11,110 nt of DNA, taken from the IMG/VR virus record IMGVR_UViG_3300014970_000061. One strand, 5' to 3'. Shown here one piece after another: positions 1 to 10,673 of the stretch. Positions within the stretch are counted from its first letter, which is position 1. Every line of letters begins with the position of its first letter. This stretch comes from a virus. Lineage: Duplodnaviria > Heunggongvirae > Uroviricota > Caudoviricetes. The notes under the pieces are model-generated. The model made no database searches, was not told where the DNA came from, and was given only the letters and a program-made list of their open reading frames with translations. The translations under genes were made by a program, and so were the position numbers.

Positions 1-60
1 ATGCCATTATTATATTTAAACACTAGAGAGTGTCGTTGGTATTTAATGGGGGAAGGTGAG

Positions 61-378
61 ATGAAAAAGATAGCTGCTATATCATTAATTAGTATTTTTA
101 TTATGTCTGGTTGTGCTGTGCATAATGATGAGACAAGTATCGGTAAATTTGGTCTTGCATATAAAAGTAATATTCAGCGTAAACTCGATAATCAATACTA
201 CACCGAAGCCGAAGCTTCTTTAGCCAGGGGCAGAATATCTGGTGCAGAAAATATAGTAAAAAATGATGCAGCCCATTTCTGTGTTACTCAGGGCAAAAAA
301 ATGCAGATAGTTGACCTGAAGACAGAAGGTGCAGGATTACATGGCGTCGCTCGTCTGACATTCAAATGTGGAGAGTGA
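61..378 (+). CDS. Putative lipoprotein (flanking gene, probably outside the prophage)
   Basis: ATG at 61 preceded by GGAAGG (51-56). N-terminus MKKIAAISLISIFIMSGC has a basic n-region, hydrophobic core and lipobox-like MSGC. Lies left of the att core, AT-rich. Start at 61 preferred over the longer ORF-track start at 1. Confidence 0.55.
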   Translation: MKKIAAISLISIFIMSGCAVHNDETSIGKFGLAYKSNIQRKLDNQYYTEAEASLARGRISGAENIVKNDAAHFCVTQGKKMQIVDLKTEGAGLHGVARLTFKCGE

Positions 379-3960: not shown

Positions 3961-4232
3961 GTATTCGTATTGAAATTGGCGAACGTTATGTCGTTACCAG
4001 TGACAGCTTTCAGTTTATTCTCCACGAGAAAAAGAGAGCGGAAAGCGGTAAAAACGCCGGTCAGGAATGGCTGGCGGTGGTTGGTTATTACCCGAAATTA
4101 AGCCAGCTCGTTTCCGGCCTGATGCATCACGATATTCTGACCGGAAGCGCAAAGTCTTTTGCTGATTTAAACGCGCAGGTTGAGCAACTCAGCAAGCGTT
4201 GTTCAGAGGCTTTTGGCTCATATGGCCGTTAA
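3957..4232 (+). CDS. Small early-operon protein (P2 orf83-like), 91 aa
   Basis: ATG at 3957, translationally coupled to the upstream gene. 3' end overlaps the A start by 11 nt. Confidence 0.6.
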   Translation: MSIRIEIGERYVVTSDSFQFILHEKKRAESGKNAGQEWLAVVGYYPKLSQLVSGLMHHDILTGSAKSFADLNAQVEQLSKRCSEAFGSYGR

Positions 4233-6507
4233 AGCCTCCGGGCGTTTTGTCCCTCCGTCAGCATTTGCCGCAGGCACCGGTAAGACGTTTACCGGTGCTT
4301 ATGCGTGGAACGCGCCACGCGAGGCTGTCGGGCGCGAAAGACCCCTTACACGTGACGAGATGCGTCAGGTGCAAGGTGTTTTATCCACGATTAACCGCCT
4401 GCCTTACTTTTTGCGCTCGCTGTTTACTTCACGCTATGACTACATCCGGCGCAATAAAAGCCTGGTGCACGGGTTTTATTTCCTCACATCCACTTTTCAG
4501 CGTCGTTTATGGCCGCGCATTGAGCGTGTGAATCAGCGCCATGAAATGAACACCGACGCGTCGTTGCTGTTTCTGGCAGAGCGCGACCAGTATGCGCGCC
4601 TGCCGGGGATGAATGACAAGGAGCTGAAAAAGTTTGCCGCCCGAATCTCATCGCAGCTTTTCATGATGTATGAGGAACTCTGCGATGCCTGGGTGGATGC
4701 GCATGGCGAAAAAGAATCGCTGTTTACGGATGAGGCGCAGGCTCACCTGTATGGTCATGTTGCTGGCGCTGCACGTGCTTTCAATATTTCCCCGCTTTAC
4801 TGGAGAAAATACCGTAAAGGACAGATGACCACGAGGCAGGCATATTCTGCCATTGCCCGTCTGTTTAACGATGAGTGGTGGACTCATCAGCTTAAAGGCC
4901 AGCGTATGCGCTGGCATGAAGCGTTACTGATAGCTGTCGGGGAGGTTAATAAAGACCGCTCACCTTATGCCAGTAAACACGCCATTCGTGATGTGCGTGC
5001 ACGCCGCCAGGCAAATCTGGAATTTCTTAAATCGTGTGACCTTGAAAACAGGGAAACCGGCGAGCGCATCGACCTTATCAGTAAGGTGATGGGCAGTATT
5101 TCTAATCCTGAAATTCGCCGGATGGAGCTGATGAACACCATTGCCGGTATTGAGCGTTACGCTGCCGCAGAGGGTGATGTGGGGATGTTTATCACGCTGA
5201 CCGCGCCGTCAAAGTATCACCCGACACGTCAGGTCGGAAAAGGCGAAAGTAAAACCGTCCAGCTAAATCACGGCTGGAACGATGAGGCATTTAATCCAAA
5301 GGATGCGCAGCGTTATCTCTGCCGTATCTGGAGCCTGATGCGCACGGCATTCAAGGATAATGATTTACAGGTCTACGGTTTGCGTGTCGTCGAGCCACAC
5401 CACGACGGAACGCCGCACTGGCATATGATGCTTTTTTGTAATCCACGCCAGCGTAACCAGATTATCGAAATCATGCGTCGCTATGCGCTCAAAGAGGATG
5501 GTGACGAAAGAGGAGCCGCGCGAAACCGTTTTCAGGCAAAGCACCTTAACCGGGGCGGTGCTGCGGGATATATCGCGAAATACATTTCAAAAAATATCGA
5601 CGGCTATGCACTGGATGGTCAGCTCGATAACGATACCGGTAAGCCGCTTAAAGATACTGCCGCGGCTGTTACCGCATGGGCGTCAACGTGGCGCATCCCG
5701 CAATTTAAAACGGTTGGACTGCCGACAATGGGGGCTTACCGTGAACTACGCAAATTGCCTCGCGGCGTCAGTATTGCTGATGAGTTTGACGAACGCGTCG
5801 AGGCTGCTCGCGCTGCCGCAGACAGTGGTGATTTTGCGTTGTATATCAGCGCGCAGGGTGGGGCAAATGTCCCGCGCGATTGTCAGACTGTCAGGGTTGC
5901 CCGTAGCCCGTCGGATGACGTTAACGAGTACGAGGAAGAAGTCGAGAGAGTGGTCGGCATTTACGCGCCGCATCTCGGCGCGCGTCATATTCATATCACC
6001 AGAACGACGGACTGGCGCATTGTGCCGAAAGTTCCGGTCGTTGAGCCTTTGACTTTAAAAAGCGGCATCGCCGCGCCTCGGAGTCCTGTCAATAACTGTG
6101 GAAAGCTCACCGGCAGTGATACTTCGTTACCGGCTCCCACACCTTATGAACATGCCGCAGCCGTGCTTAATCTGGTTGATGACGGTGTTATCGAATGGAA
6201 TGAGCCAGAGGTCGTGAGGGCGCTCAGAGGTGCATTAAAACACGAACTGAGAACACCAAATCGTCAGCAGAGAAACGGAAGCCCGTTAAAACCACATGAA
6301 ATAGCGCCATCGGCCAGACTGACCCGGTCGGAACGAACGCAAATTACCCGTATCCGCGTTGACCTTGCTCAGAACGGTATCAGGCCGCAGCGATGGGAGC
6401 TTGAGGCGCTGGCGCGTGGCGCGACCGTAAATTATGACGGGAAAAAATTCACGTATCCGGTCGCTGATGAGTGGCCGGGATTCTCAACAGTAATGGAGTG
6501 GACATAA
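4222..6507 (+). CDS. A: Replication initiator A, HUH-superfamily rolling-circle endonuclease (761 aa)
   Basis: Internal ATG at 4222 gives 761 aa, matching P2 A. HUH metal-binding motif in PHWHMMLF. Paired catalytic tyrosines in YIAKYISK, as in phiX174 gpA (YVAKYVNK). In P2 the origin lies within A, but I could not pinpoint it here. Confidence 0.9.
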   Translation: MAVKASGRFVPPSAFAAGTGKTFTGAYAWNAPREAVGRERPLTRDEMRQVQGVLSTINRLPYFLRSLFTSRYDYIRRNKSLVHGFYFLTSTFQRRLWPRIERVNQRHEMNTDASLLFLAERDQYARLPGMNDKELKKFAARISSQLFMMYEELCDAWVDAHGEKESLFTDEAQAHLYGHVAGAARAFNISPLYWRKYRKGQMTTRQAYSAIARLFNDEWWTHQLKGQRMRWHEALLIAVGEVNKDRSPYASKHAIRDVRARRQANLEFLKSCDLENRETGERIDLISKVMGSISNPEIRRMELMNTIAGIERYAAAEGDVGMFITLTAPSKYHPTRQVGKGESKTVQLNHGWNDEAFNPKDAQRYLCRIWSLMRTAFKDNDLQVYGLRVVEPHHDGTPHWHMMLFCNPRQRNQIIEIMRRYALKEDGDERGAARNRFQAKHLNRGGAAGYIAKYISKNIDGYALDGQLDNDTGKPLKDTAAAVTAWASTWRIPQFKTVGLPTMGAYRELRKLPRGVSIADEFDERVEAARAAADSGDFALYISAQGGANVPRDCQTVRVARSPSDDVNEYEEEVERVVGIYAPHLGARHIHITRTTDWRIVPKVPVVEPLTLKSGIAAPRSPVNNCGKLTGSDTSLPAPTPYEHAAAVLNLVDDGVIEWNEPEVVRALRGALKHELRTPNRQQRNGSPLKPHEIAPSARLTRSERTQITRIRVDLAQNGIRPQRWELEALARGATVNYDGKKFTYPVADEWPGFSTVMEWT

Positions 6508-6959
6508 TGGCAAAAATTCACGAGGTAAAGCTGCACGCAAAATATTTCGACCTTGTGCTGGAAGGAAAGAAACGTGCAGAGTTCCGGAAAAATGACCGTA
6601 ATTATGAGCGCGGGGACACGTTGATTTTGTATGAATGGGTGCAGGGTGTGTATACGGGGCGAAATGTTGAAGCCCGGATAACAGATGTTACTGACCTGTC
6701 AGACTGGCTGGAAGATTATGTCTTGCTAAGTATTGAGCTGCTTAATACAGGCGCATATGAGATTGTGAACTGGAAAGAACTTAGTGAGCGTGGCCTGGTA
6801 TTCAGAATTAATCATGAAATTATGCATCAGCTCGGCCTTGCTGTTATGTATGAACCAGAGACGGGGATGTCTGGCGGGGCAATGGTTGCCACGGATGGAG
6901 CATGGAACTATTCAGATGAACAGATGGAGCGTGCACAGCAAAACGGGTGGCTTGGATAA
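6507..6959 (+). CDS. DUF3850/ASCH-like (PUA-fold) protein (P2 orf91-like position), 150 aa
   Basis: ATG at 6507 overlapping the A stop (TAATG). N-terminal KIHEVKLHAKYFDLVLEGKKRAEFRKNDRNYERGDTLILYEW resembles the DUF3850/ASCH motif (RKNDR). Domain call is from memory. Confidence 0.65.
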   Translation: MAKIHEVKLHAKYFDLVLEGKKRAEFRKNDRNYERGDTLILYEWVQGVYTGRNVEARITDVTDLSDWLEDYVLLSIELLNTGAYEIVNWKELSERGLVFRINHEIMHQLGLAVMYEPETGMSGGAMVATDGAWNYSDEQMERAQQNGWLG

Positions 6960-7165
6960 TGCACAGAATACCAGGCGAGATACCGCACCATAAAACTAAA
7001 AATATCAAGCTGATGGCTATTGTTCAGCGTTTACAGCGGATTATGGTCAACGAAAATCTGACGCCCGATGAGCTGGTCGGGTGTGCCGAAATAGTCCGGG
7101 ATAATTACGGGCGGTTTAACCATATCGGTCAGTCCAGAGTTGCGCCACCACAACGCAGACGATAG
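6959..7165 (+). CDS. Small hypothetical protein, 68 aa, coupled to the upstream gene
   Basis: ATG at 6959 overlapping the upstream stop (TAATG). Basic C-terminus (PPQRRR). No recognisable domain. Last ORF before the AT-rich cargo. Confidence 0.4.
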   Translation: MHRIPGEIPHHKTKNIKLMAIVQRLQRIMVNENLTPDELVGCAEIVRDNYGRFNHIGQSRVAPPQRRR

Positions 7166-7339
7166 AGAACGCCGCCAGTCGTGAAACTTGTTTTCAGGGC
7201 TGGCGGGGTTGAATAACGAGTGTCGCGAGGCGTTAGTTTGAGCTTACAATTAAACCTATTGAAAATTAATGAGAAGTCAATTTTATCTTTTTCTCGTTAA
7301 AGATGGCCACAACTACTAAAACGTGAGAATATCAAGACT

Positions 7340-7407
7340 TGGCAAAATCTAGCTTTTCCCAACGGGGTGTTTCGCTATAATACGCGGTCGGTTTTTAGGA
7401 GGGGTCA
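7340..7407 (+). promoter_or_regulatory. Candidate sigma70 promoter and RBS for the methyltransferase gene
   Basis: Perfect -10 hexamer TATAAT at 7376-7381 with a weak -35 (cttttc region). AGGAGG at 7397-7402, 5 nt before the ATG at 7408. Confidence 0.35.
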
Positions 7408-8346
7408 ATGCCAACTGTAGTTTCACTTTTTTCTGGATGTGGTGGTTCTGATGCGGGAGTTTTGAACGCAGGTTTCAATGTGCTTATGGCAAATGATATT
7501 TTGCCTTACGCAAGGGACGTTTACTTAGAAAACCATCCTGAAACTGACTACATTTTGGGCGATATCTCAGGGCTCCAGTCGTTCCCTTCTGCTGAGTTGC
7601 TCATCGGATGCTATCCTTGCCAAGGATTTAGTCAAGGTGGGGCAAGGAAGGCAGATAGAAAGATTAATACACTATATTTAGAGTTTGCCCGTGCTTTGAG
7701 TAAAATTAAGCCAAAAGCATTCATTGTAGAGAATGTCTCTGGTATGGTAAGGCGTAACTTTGAGCATTTATTAAAGGATCAATTCAAAGTTTTCGAAGAA
7801 GCAGGTTATACAGTAAGCTCGCAAATTCTGAATGCGTCCCATTATGGGGTATCCCAAGATAGGAAGCGAATCTTTATCGTAGGAATACGAAAGGACTACG
7901 GTATTACATACAAATTTCCAAAACCAACACATGGTGATGGTTTGACACCATATTCCACAATTCGTGATGCTATTGGGCATATGCCTGTTTGGCCTGTTGG
8001 CGAGTTTTATGACGCCGATTTTCATTGGTATTATCTATCGCGAAACCGTAGGCAAGATTGGGATCAGATATCTAAAACAATTGTTGCAAATCCTAGACAT
8101 ATGCCTCTACATCCAATAAGTCCAACATTAGAAAAATTGGGACCTGATAAGTGGCAATTTACTTCGGATGCACCAGCTCGTAGGTTTAGCTATCGAGAGG
8201 CTGCTATTTTACAAGGTTTTGGGGATTTAATTTTCCCAGAAACTGAACGGGCTTCTATTAATATGAAATATACTGTGGTAGGTAATGCAGTACCGCCTCC
8301 ATTGTTTGAGGCGGTTGCTAGAAACCTTCCAGATTTATGGGATTAA
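7408..8346 (+). CDS. DNA (cytosine-5)-methyltransferase, 312 aa
   Basis: Canonical C5-MTase motifs in order: motif I LFSGCGG (AdoMet binding), motif IV GCYPCQGFSQGG (catalytic Cys in PCQ), motif VI ENV (FIVENVSGM), motif VIII QDRKR, C-terminal VVGNAVPPPLFEAV. Small size implies a short target-recognition domain. Confidence 0.92.
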   Translation: MPTVVSLFSGCGGSDAGVLNAGFNVLMANDILPYARDVYLENHPETDYILGDISGLQSFPSAELLIGCYPCQGFSQGGARKADRKINTLYLEFARALSKIKPKAFIVENVSGMVRRNFEHLLKDQFKVFEEAGYTVSSQILNASHYGVSQDRKRIFIVGIRKDYGITYKFPKPTHGDGLTPYSTIRDAIGHMPVWPVGEFYDADFHWYYLSRNRRQDWDQISKTIVANPRHMPLHPISPTLEKLGPDKWQFTSDAPARRFSYREAAILQGFGDLIFPETERASINMKYTVVGNAVPPPLFEAVARNLPDLWD

Positions 8347-9368
8347 GCAGCGATCGCGCTGGAAGGATCAAGGATGATATCTAGATAGCTAATATTTTGA
8401 CTGTGATCAATATTATCAGATGCTCTGGTTAAATTGATTAATCTTAGGCGATCAACAAAAATAGCATCGCCTAACTTATTTTTATGCGCCCACTCACCAT
8501 CTATCCATCGTAGATCTTGAGGTAAGAAATAATAAGTTGCCCATCGGTGAGCTACGGGGAATTTACTGTAGAGCATCGCAGGTGAGGCCTCAAGCTGCTT
8601 CGCTTCCCACTCTTCTTGAGAACAGCCACACTGAACAAAAGAAATAGGGATGGCATCTCGTTGATCTCCCATTGGATGCCAGGCAATTATGTCAAGGCCT
8701 CCGTCACCACTATTTCCTCGACTGAAATCTCGTTCTTTGAAGTTCGCTGTGCAACGGATATCGGAAGCAATACTCTTAAATTTATTATATAGAGTTCCAG
8801 TGTAAGGGGCCGCTTGACCACCAGAAGCCCAGCATGCTTTTATTATGCTACCGCTAGGCATTAGGCTTTCAAAAATAGGTAAACTAATTAGTTCAAAACT
8901 GCGCGTTATCTCTCTTCTGCTCATTATGTTGACATATTTTATGTTAGCACAGATTAGTAAAGCTAAATATAGTCTTTCTAAATGTTCCAGTGGCTTTTCT
9001 GATATATCACGTAACTCTACAGTATCGTTGTCTTCTGATAAAGTAAAAGGGTAACTATCCCCAAATAAATCAATGCGTTGTCGTATGAAGCCTATCGCAT
9101 AGCTCCACTTTCTGTCAGTATATGCTCGACTAACACTTCGTTTTGTTCTCTTGCGTACAGGCGTATCATTTTCATCATCAACATCATAAACGCCCTCTTC
9201 TTCTGCTTCATCTGTTTCAGCTAGTACTGCTTCGGGTTGAGCTTGCAGTGTGCTATATAGGTCTCCTCGACTGAATGACCTGTCGATATTAGTTAAGGCC
9301 AATATCTCAATATAATCAGCCCATAAATAAGGCTCATTAGAAGGCATTGAATCAAGATTTGTAATCAT
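8343..9368 (-). CDS. Uncharacterized protein with a possible Mrr-like PD-(D/E)xK nuclease signature, about 341 aa (start uncertain)
   Basis: Long minus-strand ORF whose stop overlaps the MTase stop (TTAA at 8343-8346). GDGGLDIIAW followed about 20 aa later by FVQCGCSQEEWEAK resembles the GDGGID ... (V/I)QxK core of Mrr-type nucleases, but with Gly where the Lys is expected. Acidic then basic linker (ETDEAEEEGVYDVDDENDTP / VRKRTKRSVSR). In-frame starts at 9452, 9380 and 9368; 9368 chosen because GGAGG lies 12 nt upstream and it sits 4 nt after the upstream stop. Confidence 0.7.
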   Translation of the reverse strand: MITNLDSMPSNEPYLWADYIEILALTNIDRSFSRGDLYSTLQAQPEAVLAETDEAEEEGVYDVDDENDTPVRKRTKRSVSRAYTDRKWSYAIGFIRQRIDLFGDSYPFTLSEDNDTVELRDISEKPLEHLERLYLALLICANIKYVNIMSRREITRSFELISLPIFESLMPSGSIIKACWASGGQAAPYTGTLYNKFKSIASDIRCTANFKERDFSRGNSGDGGLDIIAWHPMGDQRDAIPISFVQCGCSQEEWEAKQLEASPAMLYSKFPVAHRWATYYFLPQDLRWIDGEWAHKNKLGDAIFVDRLRLINLTRASDNIDHSQNISYLDIILDPSSAIAA

Positions 9369-9372
9369 AATC

Positions 9373-10446
9373 TCAATCATCCTCCCTTTTGCTTCTGATC
9401 TGATTTCTAATATTTTTTGACATCTCAAAAATTTCAGATGCAGCCTCTTCATGCTCTAATGTTAATTCTTTAGCTTTAAGTAGCATATCCCAAACTACTC
9501 TTAATTTAACACTAGCTGCGTTTAGTGCTTTATCTAATGCTTCTCTTTCTCCGCTGGTATATAGATATGCTTCATCCAAGTTTGAACTTTTCATGAGAAT
9601 TTCAATTGCTTCGGGTTTCTCAACCACTGCTGCAATATCTTTTATTCTTCGAGACTCACCGATGATGGTTCTACCTTGTTGGTCAGGCACAAAAAACCAA
9701 GAGAATAAACGCTTAAGGTTTTCTTCATTTAAATTTGGGTCTAAAAAATCCTTTTTATCCTGTAGACCTAACCAGTTTGTGATTTTTGAATATCCCAAAG
9801 CTGTGGTTATATATGAAAATTCCACGTCAGAAGCCTTCATGGGTAAATTAAAAAACTCATGGTCATGCGCGACTTCATATAAGTTCAGTGCAGTGAGAAG
9901 TGTTGCAACATAATGTGGTTTACTCCCAATCTCACGAGCCAGATTTTTTAATACTATCTCTTTAGGCTCATGTGAATAAAAAGTATCACATAACTCTTTA
10001 AGGTATTTGGCTTTAGATAATGAGTCCCATTCTTTGACCCCAGTTATATGACGATAACCGATATATCTCAGTACATCCTCTCGGTTTTCATAAATGATGC
10101 AGGGAAGCTTCTTAGGTTTATTGGTAGTATCATCAATGATTTCTTGCACACCTTTAAGTTTTCTTTTTGGAGGAAGCAGATCTCCATTGAGCAACTTTAC
10201 AGCAGCTAAGCGTCTGTTTCCCTCAACCACGATGTAGTTTCCATTGCTTTTTACTGCCAATAAAGGTTCTCCAGGAAAGTAACCTTGCTGACCGATTGAT
10301 AGCATTAGATCGTGGACACTTTCGTCATCTAACATTTCCTCAATGACTGTTGCAGCGTTACTGGCATCATTGAGACGAAAGAAACGTGGGTTTTTAGGGT
10401 CAAAATCAAGCTTATTTGTCTCAATTTCTACGATTTTGTTATCCAT
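9373..10446 (-). CDS. ParB/Srx-superfamily (ParB N-terminal domain) protein, 357 aa from the ATG at 10446
   Basis: N-terminus MDNKIVEIETNKLDFDPKNPRFF ... LMLSIGQQGYFPGEPLLAVKSNGNYIVVEGNRRLAAVKLL parallels the ParB N-terminal domain (I..L..P.NPR box and GxRRxxA arginine patch). GAGG 5 nt upstream of the ATG at 10446. Longer ORF-track start at 10578 lacks an RBS. C-terminal 250 aa has no motif I recognise. Confidence 0.8.
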   Translation of the reverse strand: MDNKIVEIETNKLDFDPKNPRFFRLNDASNAATVIEEMLDDESVHDLMLSIGQQGYFPGEPLLAVKSNGNYIVVEGNRRLAAVKLLNGDLLPPKRKLKGVQEIIDDTTNKPKKLPCIIYENREDVLRYIGYRHITGVKEWDSLSKAKYLKELCDTFYSHEPKEIVLKNLAREIGSKPHYVATLLTALNLYEVAHDHEFFNLPMKASDVEFSYITTALGYSKITNWLGLQDKKDFLDPNLNEENLKRLFSWFFVPDQQGRTIIGESRRIKDIAAVVEKPEAIEILMKSSNLDEAYLYTSGEREALDKALNAASVKLRVVWDMLLKAKELTLEHEEAASEIFEMSKNIRNQIRSKREDD

Positions 10447-10673
10447 CTTAACCTCATGGGATGATGTAAATATCTTTTGGGGGATGCTTGATAAAACATC
10501 CATATTTGATCGTTTGCAGCGCATTTGATACATCGAAGTGTACAAAAATGCTGGGCATAACTCTGCATTAAAATGCATTCACATTCAAAGAACTATTTTC
10601 TCGTTGGACATTTAGCCCAAGAGAGTTTGGACGGCTTTTGGAATTGCATCAAAACCGACCCATGAAGCGGGCG

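What the first reader, a model, noticed from the sequence alone, without database searches (positions are those of the whole stretch)
7166..10673. Three-gene cassette replaces tin/old in the P2 defence hotspot: C5-MTase convergent with a ParB-like / nuclease-like operon
Between the last conserved early-region gene and cos, P2 carries tin and old; other P2-like prophages are reported to carry varied anti-phage systems here. This window instead has a C5-cytosine methyltransferase (7408..8346, +) tail-to-tail with a two-gene minus-strand operon: a ParB/Srx-domain protein (9373..10446) and a protein with a degenerate Mrr-like PD-(D/E)xK signature (8343..9368). I do not recognise this combination as any characterised defence system. 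The architecture looks restriction-modification-like, but a ParB-type partner is not part of classical Type II systems, and split Type IV enzymes of the GmrSD kind use DUF262 plus a His-Me nuclease rather than this pairing. Candidate functions: a modification-linked restriction or abortive-infection module protecting the lysogen.
Basis: partly seen in the sequence, partly recalled or inferred. Interest (0 to 1): 0.88.

Follow-up and report, generated by a model that had tools for sequence, protein, structure and literature searches.

The report
ParB-nuclease restriction-modification cassette in P2 hotspot
This P2-like prophage carries a widespread but unnamed three-gene module (a cytosine methyltransferase, a ParB-like nucleotide-binding protein and a restriction-type nuclease) that most likely works as an unconventional restriction-modification system, probably at TGGCCA sites, to protect the lysogen from foreign DNA.

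Summary
Window 7166-10673 holds a C5 methyltransferase (7408-8346, +) tail-to-tail with a two-gene operon: a ParB/Srx-fold protein (9373-10446, -) and a nuclease, here "MID" (8343-9368, -). It lies between P2 gpA/orf91 and cos/portal and is 99.9% identical to phage Wphi mth-gp96-gp98.

The trio is a conserved module. ParB sits directly upstream of MID in 27/27 genome loci and 45/46 viral loci. A C5 MTase is adjacent in 25/27 and 46/46. In complete E. coli genomes the MTase never occurs without a pair (140/140). ParB and MID co-evolve (r = 0.98), and the MTase is the most conserved partner.

Models show a restriction-type PD-(D/E)xK nuclease with a winged helix, and a ParB/Srx NTP-binding fold with a ParB-type DNA-binding domain.

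In Methylomonas sp. DH-1 the same trio includes AYM39_01025, which makes TGG(m5C)CA. Methylating or deleting those sites raises transformation, but the restriction enzyme was never identified.

Only the ParB module is shared with the validated system PD-lambda-5; the effector and MTase class differ. The best reading is an unnamed R-M system with a two-subunit, probably NTP-gated, endonuclease. It is a new variant of a known kind, with no phage-defence test yet.

The parts
7304..7309 (.). TGGCCA, the only copy in the window. It is the probable target site of the MTase and lies 99 bp upstream of the MTase start codon. It may be a methylation-sensitive regulatory site.
   Evidence: 1 site against 2.7 expected. 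TGGCCA lies within 200 bp upstream of the MTase start in 29/61 distinct loci against 8% expected. With the shared P2-like -104 class counted as one event this is 10/42, P 1.6e-3. The ParB-upstream control gives 2/61. The regulatory role is inferred.
7376..7403 (+). Consensus TATAAT (7376-7381) and AGGAGG Shine-Dalgarno (7398-7403) ahead of the MTase gene.
   Evidence: Read directly. The promoter scan as a whole was not above chance, so this is a sequence observation only.
7408..8346 (+). C5-cytosine DNA methyltransferase (312 aa; Wphi Mth; WP_001143634), the M component.
   Evidence: Pfam DNA_methylase E 1e-61. Full-length match to M.HaeIII E 1.6e-48. 70% identical to Methylomonas DH-1 AYM39_01025, which makes TGG(m5C)CA. 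66-84% identical across most Gamma- and Betaproteobacteria loci, TRD region included.
8343..9368 (-). 'MID' (Wphi gp96; WP_000570053; PGAP start 9380): N-terminal winged-helix-like region plus a C-terminal PD-(D/E)xK nuclease domain. Candidate catalytic subunit of the restriction enzyme. Its stop codon overlaps that of the MTase.
9373..10446 (-). ParB/Srx-fold protein (Wphi gp98; WP_000368931): N-terminal NTP-binding ParB domain, ParB-type DNA-binding region and C-terminal helical domain. Candidate sensor/switch subunit. The next gene starts 4 nt after its stop codon (or overlaps it, if PGAP's MID start is used).
10447..10673 (-). Upstream (promoter) region of the ParB-MID operon, next to cos and the portal gene. 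One E. coli copy has an IS2 inserted here.
   Evidence: Sequence. IS2 insertion between ParB and the portal gene in NZ_CP048915. No promoter was assigned with confidence.

Best explanation
The cassette is a three-gene restriction-modification system whose endonuclease has two subunits.

The C5 MTase marks the host and prophage DNA, most probably at TGGCCA (TGG-m5C-CA). The ParB-like protein and MID form the restriction enzyme. The ParB-like subunit binds DNA through its ParB-type helix-turn-helix region and uses its ParB/Srx nucleotide pocket as an NTP-driven switch. MID supplies a winged helix and a PD-(D/E)xK active site that cuts DNA lacking the methyl mark. In a P2 lysogen this would destroy incoming phage or plasmid DNA and would also stabilise the prophage.

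Shown here: the identity and fold of the three proteins, their near-obligate co-occurrence, ParB-MID co-evolution and tight gene packing.

Shown by others for a 70%-identical MTase in the same trio: TGGCCA methylation, and restriction of unmethylated TGGCCA plasmids.

Inferred: that ParB+MID is that restriction activity, that they form a complex, that an NTP is used and which one, that the E. coli/Wphi MTase has the same specificity, and that the system blocks phages.
For: (1) Domains. C5 MTase. MID is a restriction-type PD-(D/E)xK fold with high model confidence. The ParB-like protein is a ParB/Srx fold with invariant box I and box II nucleotide-binding residues plus a ParB-type DNA-binding domain.

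(2) Synteny. ParB is immediately upstream of MID in 27/27 genome loci. A C5 MTase is adjacent in 25/27. In viral contigs the MTase is adjacent in 46/46 and ParB in 45/46, and about 37 loci lie between the P2 portal gene and gpA. Distant superfamily members keep MT+ParB+MID, with or without Vsr. In E. coli, 140 genomes carry the MTase, 104 with the Wphi-type pair and 36 with the diverged pair, and none has an orphan MTase.

(3) Vsr genes accompany the MTase in several loci, as expected for an active m5C MTase.

(4) ParB and MID co-diverge (r = 0.98), against r = 0.46-0.48 with the MTase. Their genes abut or overlap.

(5) The convergent M and R genes share overlapping stop codons.

(6) Disruptions spare the MTase. 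IS5 sits in MID, IS2 sits upstream of ParB, and MID is fragmented in a Dechloromonas MAG, with the MTase intact each time.

(7) Experiment in a homologous trio. Methylomonas DH-1 ParB (ANE53903), MID (AYM39_01020) and the adjacent MTase AYM39_01025. That MTase makes TGG(m5C)CA. Both pre-methylation and removal of TGGCCA sites raise transformation (PMC7720504).

(8) TGGCCA is enriched just upstream of the MTase genes across the family.

(9) The validated defence system PD-lambda-5 uses a homologous ParB module with an MTase.
Against: No experiment links ParB+MID to the DH-1 restriction activity. REBASE lists 12 R-M systems in that genome and the effect was only about 2.2-fold.

MID's third-strand motif is VQCG, with an invariant Gly where Mrr- and MspJI-type nucleases have the catalytic Lys. 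An invariant K261 in the next helix may or may not substitute.

Nucleotide binding by this ParB-like protein is untested, and the fold can bind CTP, ATP or GTP.

Two very different ParB/MID pairs (25-32% identity) are served by a 98%-identical MTase, which is unusual if the pair itself reads a 6-bp site.

E. coli W, which carries Wphi, is described as 'restriction minus', although that statement was based only on hsd/mcr/mrr.

PD-lambda-5 was interpreted as 'RM+Abi', so an abortive component cannot be excluded.
Confidence: 0.65

Rival explanations
1. MID alone is an ordinary Type II restriction endonuclease cognate to the MTase. The ParB-like protein is not part of the enzyme and instead acts as a regulator, comparable to a controller (C) protein or to DndB, timing R against M expression or binding the operator.
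For: The ParB-like protein has a helix-turn-helix region like KorB and Spo0J. KorB and DndB are ParB-fold transcriptional regulators. MID has its own winged-helix-like DNA-binding region. TGGCCA and operator-like features sit upstream of the MTase.
Against: The ParB-like protein is 357 aa, with invariant nucleotide-pocket residues, and is more conserved than MID. Its divergence tracks MID almost perfectly (r = 0.98) but tracks the MTase poorly. It is encoded first in the same operon, with abutting or overlapping genes, in every locus. In PD-lambda-5 the homologous domain is fused to the effector.
Confidence: 0.15
2. The system is a PD-lambda-5-like 'RM+Abi'. The ParB-like protein senses infection, through phage DNA or a phage protein, and unleashes MID as a toxic nuclease that kills or arrests the infected cell. 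The MTase would protect against basal activity or act as an antidote.
For: The ParB module is homologous to PD-lambda-5 A. Its authors read PD-lambda-5 as a compact RM+Abi system with unusually broad protection. Effector swapping on a constant sensor is typical of such systems. PD-(D/E)xK effectors such as Cap4, NucC, Card1, Can2 and HamA are among MID's structural neighbours.
Against: In DH-1 the barrier depends on TGGCCA sites in the incoming plasmid and is relieved by methylating or deleting them. That is classical restriction, not infection sensing. One MTase family with a conserved TRD is retained across the whole family, often with Vsr. MID is unrelated to the PD-lambda-5 effector half.
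Confidence: 0.13
3. ParB+MID is a modification-dependent (Type IV-like) enzyme in the manner of GmrSD, SspE or MspJI. The neighbouring MTase would be functionally independent, for example protecting phage DNA against other hosts' enzymes.
For: ParB-superfamily DUF262 domains sense modified DNA in GmrSD and SspE. The best Foldseek hit of MID is the modification-dependent enzyme MspJI.
Confidence: 0.04
4. The cassette is not a defence system. It would be a phage housekeeping or epigenetic module, such as ParB-like DNA handling for the prophage, or an orphan-like MTase with accessory proteins.
For: ParB-fold proteins have many roles on mobile elements. Phage MTases often serve as anti-restriction functions.
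Against: The trio also occurs on chromosomes and conjugative elements outside phages, next to NERD-UvrD, TIR, type IIG-like and other defence-type genes. There is no ParA or parS context, and TIGR00180 scores below its cutoff. The cassette occupies the P2 hotspot, which otherwise holds tin, old and validated defence systems. Its nuclease partner has a restriction-type fold.
Confidence: 0.03

Closest known systems
PD-lambda-5 (Vassallo et al. 2022; PADLOC PD-Lambda-5_A/B)
   Same: The N-terminal ParB module is homologous (PADLOC E about 1e-24; hhalign probability 98.4%, 30% identity over 144 aa, including the FDPxNPR, GYFP and VVEGNRR motifs). The ParB protein is encoded next to a DNA methyltransferase. 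Both are carried by temperate phages and prophages. The effector half can be a separate ORF, as in Vibrio phage ValB1MD-2.
   Different: The PD-lambda-5 effector is a weak HEPN/DUF4145-like C-terminal half that is unrelated to MID (hhalign probability 0.2%). Its MTase is a D12-class adenine enzyme, not a C5 enzyme. Here the ParB protein has its own long helical C-terminal region and a separate PD-(D/E)xK partner.
LlaJI and McrBC-type NTP-dependent restriction enzymes (from my own knowledge of the literature, not tested here)
   Same: Both have an operon of an NTPase/DNA-recognition subunit followed by a PD-(D/E)xK nuclease subunit. In LlaJI this is paired with C5 MTases and restricts unmethylated DNA.
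   Different: The NTPase there is an AAA+ GTPase (McrB family). Here it is a ParB/Srx fold. There is no sequence or fold relationship, so the resemblance is one of mechanism only.
Classical Type II R-M systems of the NgoMIV/Cfr10I/Bse634I/SgrAI group, and BalI/MscI (TGGCCA)
   Different: Classical enzymes are single-gene homodimers that need no NTP. Here a second, co-evolving ParB-fold gene is always present. MID matches no known REase sequence family.
GmrSD / BrxU / SspE / Menshen NsnA (DUF262-type ParB sensors in defence)
   Same: A ParB-superfamily NTPase domain is coupled to a nuclease for discriminating DNA by its modification state.
   Different: Those systems use the DUF262 subfamily (DGxQR motif) with His-Me/HNH or other effectors, and they mostly attack modified DNA. 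Here the ParB domain is the canonical GxRR type with a PD-(D/E)xK partner and a protective MTase.
Canonical ParB / KorB / Noc CTPase clamps
   Same: The best structural matches are to these proteins. The box I and box II nucleotide-binding motifs and a ParB-type DNA-binding domain are present.
   Different: There is no ParA partner and no partition context. TIGR00180 scores below its cutoff (29.9 against 58.45). Box III did not align. The nucleotide preference is unknown.

Membership tests
Restriction-modification system (generic: a protective MTase plus an endonuclease blocked by that methylation) | An active DNA methyltransferase with a defined target | tested here: inconclusive
   All C5 catalytic motifs are present. 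A 70%-identical orthologue in the same trio makes TGG(m5C)CA. The activity and specificity of the window's own enzyme have not been measured.
Restriction-modification system (generic: a protective MTase plus an endonuclease blocked by that methylation) | A linked endonuclease | tested here: met
   MID has a restriction-type PD-(D/E)xK fold and is linked to the MTase in about 70 of 73 loci. Catalytic competence is unproven, because the third-strand motif is VQCG rather than QxK.
Restriction-modification system (generic: a protective MTase plus an endonuclease blocked by that methylation) | Unmethylated target DNA is restricted and methylation protects | not testable with these tools
   Published for Methylomonas DH-1, which carries the trio, but that activity was not assigned to ParB+MID.
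Classical Type II (single-subunit, NTP-independent) REase families | Sequence membership in a known REase family | tested here: not met
   MID and 10 distant relatives have no Pfam, NCBIfam or PADLOC REase hit. A PDB profile search found nothing at E <= 10.
PD-lambda-5 | A protein: ParB-type N-terminal domain | tested here: met
   23 PD-Lambda-5_A models hit, but only at model positions ~1-160. hhalign to a bona fide member gives probability 98.4%.
PD-lambda-5 | A protein: C-terminal effector half (HEPN/DUF4145-like) | tested here: not met
   The ParB protein does not cover model positions beyond ~160. MID against the effector half gives hhalign probability 0.2%.
PD-lambda-5 | B protein: D12-class N6-adenine MTase | tested here: not met
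   The window MTase is Pfam DNA_methylase (C5). Bona fide B proteins hit MethyltransfD12 and PD-Lambda-5_B.
GmrSD / DUF262 Type IV enzymes | A DUF262 domain (DGxQR) plus a His-Me/HNH (DUF1524) nuclease | tested here: not met
ParABS partition ParB | TIGR00180-level similarity, a ParA partner and a C-terminal dimerisation domain | tested here: not met
   TIGR00180 scores 29.9 bits against a cutoff of 58.45. No ParA gene is present in the window or the related loci.
Druantia type II (the MTase's best PADLOC hit is DruM2) | DruE helicase and DruF/DruG partners | tested here: not met
   Only three genes lie between orf91 and cos, and none is a large helicase. The DruM hit reflects generic C5 MTase similarity.
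PADLOC candidate PDC-M38 | The A protein (715-position model) together with its partner(s) | tested here: inconclusive
   The ParB protein matches only positions 58-342 of 715 (E 9e-25), and MID matches no PADLOC model. No description of PDC-M38 was found in the literature library.

The most novel reading that the evidence does not exclude
ParB+MID would be a new mechanistic class of restriction endonuclease. A ParB-CTPase-fold subunit would load at unmethylated TGGCCA, close into an NTP-bound clamp or oligomer and possibly slide, as ParB and KorB do. It would thereby license a dedicated PD-(D/E)xK subunit to cut. This would be the first sequence-specific R-M system gated by a ParB-type nucleotide switch. 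It would also explain the mechanism of PD-lambda-5 and of about 1,500 sequence clusters of uncharacterised MID-family proteins.
Probability: 0.3. Interest if true: 0.85.

Novelty: new variant of a known kind. Interest (0 to 1): 0.68.

Why it matters
If ParB+MID is the restriction enzyme, four things follow.

1. A large family gains a function. The MID superfamily spans about 1,500 clusters at 50% identity, across Proteobacteria, Bacteroidota-type elements and many P2-like prophages. About 2.6% of complete E. coli genomes carry it, including O145 EHEC.

2. The ParB nucleotide-switch fold, currently of much interest outside chromosome segregation, gains a role in classical, site-specific restriction.

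3. The unexplained 'RM+Abi' system PD-lambda-5 gets a testable model: the same sensor with a swapped effector.

4. There is a practical use. The unidentified TGGCCA restriction barrier in the methane-conversion chassis Methylomonas sp. DH-1 would have candidate genes (AYM39_01015/01020) to delete.

The cassette is also a tidy case of modular evolution, with one conserved MTase serving two ParB/nuclease pairs that are only 25-32% identical.

Tried and rejected
Searches that found no family for MID:
- Pfam, NCBIfam and PADLOC gave nothing.
- A PDB profile search found nothing even at E <= 10.
- Ten distant superfamily members have no Pfam domain.

Membership ideas rejected:
- PD-lambda-5: only the ParB N-domain matches, the effector half is unrelated and the MTase class differs.
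- Druantia II: the DruM hit is generic.
- GmrSD/DUF262.
- ParABS partition.

Resources not available:
- The afdb50 fold library was not installed.
- Odegrip 2006 (on the variable locus of P2-like phages) and Maindola 2014 (on ParB/Srx activities) are not held.
- The supplementary sequence of AYM39_01025 is not held, so identity was established through adjacent locus tags and accessions.

Literature searches for a named ParB + nuclease + C5 MTase system or for 'PDC-M38' found none. The ParB-CTPase survey (PMC12704722) works at the domain level and does not describe this operon.

The promoter and terminator scan of the cassette was not above chance, and no convincing operator palindrome was found upstream of ParB.

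TGGCCA is not significantly depleted in the window (1 site against 2.7 expected).

I considered testing whether cassette-positive E. coli lack mcrBC/mrr, but the search tool lists at most 60 records, so the overlap could not be computed. The only data point is that E. coli W lacks them.

The mirror-tree and TRD-conservation analysis used only 15 non-redundant trios that passed strict length filters.

Full report
WHAT IS THERE

The window is the left arm and early region of a P2-like prophage. It holds, in order: integrase (643-1656, -), the C/cox region, B, small early ORFs, gpA (4180-6507, +), a DUF3850/ASCH orf91 homologue (6471-6959), a 68-72-aa ORF (6947-7165), the cassette, and then the end of the portal gene from 10862.

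The cassette (7166-10673) is 99.9-100% identical to the right end of phage Wphi (mth, gp96, gp98) and to a record called 'Peduovirus P2' OU784549. It is present at >= 99% identity in 104 of 5,426 complete E. coli genomes. Its GC content (35-43%) is well below that of the P2 backbone (50-55%).

THE THREE PROTEINS

(i) The methyltransferase, 7408-8346 (+), is a complete C5-cytosine enzyme.
- Pfam DNA_methylase E 1e-61, and TIGR00675 above its cutoff.
- It aligns end to end with M.HaeIII, variable region included, but only over the N-terminal half with M.HhaI.

(ii) The protein at 9373-10446 (-) is a ParB/Srx-fold protein.
- Pfam sees it only weakly (E 0.026), but its family has an invariant EGNRRLAAVK box and an invariant N-P-R box.

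(iii) The middle protein ('MID', 8343-9368, -) has no hit in Pfam, NCBIfam or PADLOC, and is a PHROG of unknown function.
- Its model is very confident (pLDDT 91.8, pTM 0.91).
- One caveat: the strand that normally carries (D/E/Q)xK reads VQCG with an invariant Gly. An invariant Lys (K261) sits in the next helix. Whether the active site is complete is therefore inferred, not shown.

IS THE TRIO A UNIT?

Yes, and this is the strongest result.

- Species-representative genomes: 25 loci carry a MID homologue, and two more were found by exact look-up. ParB is the gene immediately upstream on the same strand in 27/27. A C5 MTase is adjacent in 25/27. The two exceptions are a contig end and a Bacteroidota MAG in which a different methyltransferase gene (Methyltransf_24) precedes ParB.
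- Viral contigs: the MTase is adjacent in 46/46 and ParB in 45/46, the one miss being a contig end. About 37 loci lie between a P2-type portal gene and gpA, which is this same hotspot.
- Size of the family: an exhaustive profile search shows the MID superfamily is large, with 1,522 clusters at 50% identity, almost all stand-alone proteins of 300-370 aa.
- Distant members: those with enough context again show MT-ParB-MID-Vsr, ParB-MID-MT, or MT next to ParB-MID.
- Other phages: vB_EcoM-12474II-V, Yersinia phage HQ103 (whose MTase is unannotated) and Pseudomonas phage vB_PaeM-D14A carry the trio. Yersinia phage L-413C keeps only a truncated ParB remnant.
- E. coli: the MTase occurs in 140 complete genomes, 104 with the Wphi-type pair and 36 with the 12474III-type pair, and never alone.

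HOW THE PARTS EVOLVE

- The MTase is the most conserved partner. It is 66-84% identical to the window's enzyme across most Gamma- and Betaproteobacteria loci, and its variable region is as conserved as the catalytic core. ParB is 51-64% identical and MID 42-54%.
- Pairwise distances of ParB and MID correlate at r = 0.98. Either one correlates with the MTase at only 0.46-0.48 (15 non-redundant trios).
- The extreme case is Wphi against 12474III: MTase 98% identical, ParB 32%, MID 25%.
- So ParB and MID behave as one co-adapted unit, consistent with a physical complex, and this unit is exchanged against a constant methyltransferase.
- The ParB and MID genes abut or overlap. The convergent MTase and MID genes share overlapping stop codons.
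- Disruptions hit the ParB/MID side and spare the MTase: IS5 in MID, IS2 upstream of ParB, and a fragmented MID in a Dechloromonas MAG. These are few events, but they go in the direction expected for an R-M system.

EXPERIMENTAL ANCHOR FROM THE LITERATURE

Methylomonas sp. DH-1 encodes the trio.
- ParB is ANE53903.1.
- MID is 'hypothetical protein AYM39_01020' (ANE53904.1).
- A convergent 315-aa C5 MTase is the next gene, which makes it AYM39_01025.

Ren et al. 2020 (PMC7720504) reported the following.
- Whole-genome bisulfite sequencing finds a single m5C motif in DH-1, TGGCCA.
- AYM39_01025 expressed in E. coli protects MscI sites (TGGCCA), consistent with the paper's conclusion that it recognises TGGCCA rather than bare GGCC, and methylates the fourth base.
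- Pre-methylating a plasmid raises transformation by 124%.
- Mutating away its three TGGCCA sites does the same.

The restriction enzyme was not identified, and REBASE had predicted GGCC for this MTase.

The window's MTase is 70% identical to this enzyme over its full length. My identification of the paper's MTase with the trio's MTase rests on adjacent locus tags and accessions, because the supplementary sequence is not held.

AN INDEPENDENT IN-SILICO ECHO

- The only TGGCCA in the 11-kb window lies at 7304-7309. That is 99 bp upstream of the MTase start codon and 67 bp upstream of a consensus TATAAT.
- Across 61 distinct trio loci, 29 have TGGCCA within 200 bp upstream of the MTase start, against 8% expected.
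- Counting the shared P2-like '-104' position as a single event gives 10/42 (P 1.6e-3). The ParB-upstream control gives 2/61.
- In two distant loci (L083, L087) it is the only TGGCCA in the whole locus.
- This supports TGGCCA as the family's target and suggests methylation-sensitive control of the MTase promoter. The regulatory part is a hypothesis.

MOST LIKELY MECHANISM

The cassette is an R-M system with a two-subunit endonuclease. The MTase methylates TGGCCA. The ParB-like subunit binds DNA and uses its nucleotide pocket as a switch. MID cuts DNA that lacks the mark.

- Shown here: folds, motifs, linkage, co-evolution.
- Shown by others for a homologue: MTase specificity, and a site- and methylation-dependent barrier.
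- Inferred: that ParB+MID is that barrier, that the two form a complex, which NTP is used (the fold binds CTP, ATP or GTP; PMC12704722), how cleavage is arranged, and that phages are blocked.

I put this at 0.65. The rivals are as follows.
- ParB as a regulator of an otherwise ordinary Type II enzyme: 0.15.
- A PD-lambda-5-like restriction/abortive hybrid: 0.13.
- A modification-dependent enzyme with an unrelated MTase: 0.04.
- A non-defence role: 0.03.

COMPARISON WITH WHAT IS KNOWN

The closest named system is PD-lambda-5 (Vassallo et al. 2022). It is a ParB-domain protein with a weak HEPN/DUF4145-like C-terminus plus a Dam-type MTase. It gives broad protection, was cloned in an mrr-deleted host, and was read as a compact 'RM+Abi'.

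- The ParB module is homologous to ours: PADLOC E about 1e-24 over model positions 1-160, and hhalign probability 98.4%.
- Bona fide PD-lambda-5 loci in Marinobacter phage AS1 and Vibrio phage ValB1MD-2 show that the effector half can be a separate ORF.
- MID is unrelated to that effector half (probability 0.2%), and the MTase class differs.
- So the cassette is not a PD-lambda-5 member. It is a sister architecture: the same sensor module with a different effector and a different methyltransferase.

In working principle it resembles LlaJI and McrBC-type enzymes (an NTPase subunit plus a PD-(D/E)xK subunit). This comparison is from my own knowledge, and there is no homology. It fails the membership tests for GmrSD/DUF262, ParABS ParB, Druantia II and any known Type II REase sequence family.

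Both E. coli variants are listed, with no name or test, in the P2-hotspot table of Rousset et al. 2022 as 'DNA_methylase + hypothetical + ParBc' and the equivalent entry. That paper's main text mentions neither ParB nor a methylase. No paper in the searchable library names or tests the trio. The library does not cover subscription journals or REBASE.

VERDICT

It is not categorically new. ParB-superfamily sensors in defence, and a validated ParB+MTase system, already exist, and the genes have been visible since the Wphi genome. It is an unnamed, widespread variant whose restriction component has never been assigned, and it now has a concrete target site and clear experiments. Interest is 0.68. 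The novelty class is a new variant of a known kind.

Noticed in passing
window 6471-6959 (+): The last conserved early gene before the cassette encodes a DUF3850/ASCH + DUF7415 protein (P2 orf91-like). A 2025 survey reports that ParB-CTPase folds are frequently fused to DUF3850 in phages (PMC12704722). Here a DUF3850 gene sits next to a ParB-containing cassette. This may be coincidence, because orf91 is also conserved in P2 with tin/old.
   Followed up: no
window 7304-7309: The single TGGCCA in the window lies 99 bp upstream of the MTase ATG. The same placement recurs in 29/61 related loci, against 8% expected. It may be a methylation-sensitive operator.
   Followed up: partly
window 7168-7210: A 19-nt inverted repeat (84% complementary, 5-nt loop) lies immediately after the stop of the 6947-7165 ORF. 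It is probably the terminator of the early operon, marking the left edge of the hotspot.
   Followed up: no
L032 2335-3279 (-) (Yersinia phage HQ103, NC_070908): An intact 314-aa C5 MTase, 77% identical to the window's enzyme, is not annotated in the deposited record. With it, HQ103 carries a complete trio.
   Followed up: yes
L031 207-1199 (Yersinia phage L-413C, NC_004745): Only a truncated ParB-like ORF remains, running into orf91. MID and the MTase are deleted. This looks like a decayed cassette.
   Followed up: partly
L034, L036 (IS5 in MID) and L035 (IS2 upstream of ParB), E. coli chromosomes: IS insertions disrupt MID or the ParB-MID upstream region while the MTase stays intact. In these strains the portal gene is also truncated, so the prophage is a remnant.
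   Followed up: partly
L004 9373-12507; L022, L023, L024 equivalents: In four Burkholderiales/Rhizobium loci a ~1040-aa protein with a weak N6_Mtase domain (type IIG-like) sits between MID and a more distant C5 MTase (47-49% identical). It could be a second system or an alternative partner.
   Followed up: partly
L030 5861-8936 (Bacteroidota MAG): ParB+MID homologues are preceded by a Methyltransf_24-domain gene instead of a C5 MTase. This may be a different modification enzyme serving the same pair.
   Followed up: no
L089 3132-5571 (Vibrio phage ValB1MD-2): A bona fide PD-lambda-5 system whose A protein is split into two ORFs, a ParB half and an effector half, followed by the D12 MTase.
   Followed up: yes
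L001 (Wphi NC_005056) against RefSeq E. coli annotation: The Wphi record annotates the longest ORFs (gp96 369 aa, gp98 401 aa, overlapping by 80 nt). PGAP and the homologue alignments favour shorter products of 341-345 aa and 357 aa.
   Followed up: yes
E. coli W (natural host of Wphi); PMC3032704: E. coli W lacks hsdMRS, mcrBC and mrr. This is compatible with carrying an active foreign m5C MTase, but it is a single anecdote.
   Followed up: no
window 1-378 (+): A 125-aa ORF, with a lipoprotein-like signal (…IFIMSGC…) in its translation, flanks the integrase end of the prophage. It is presumably a host or attachment-site-flanking gene.
   Followed up: no
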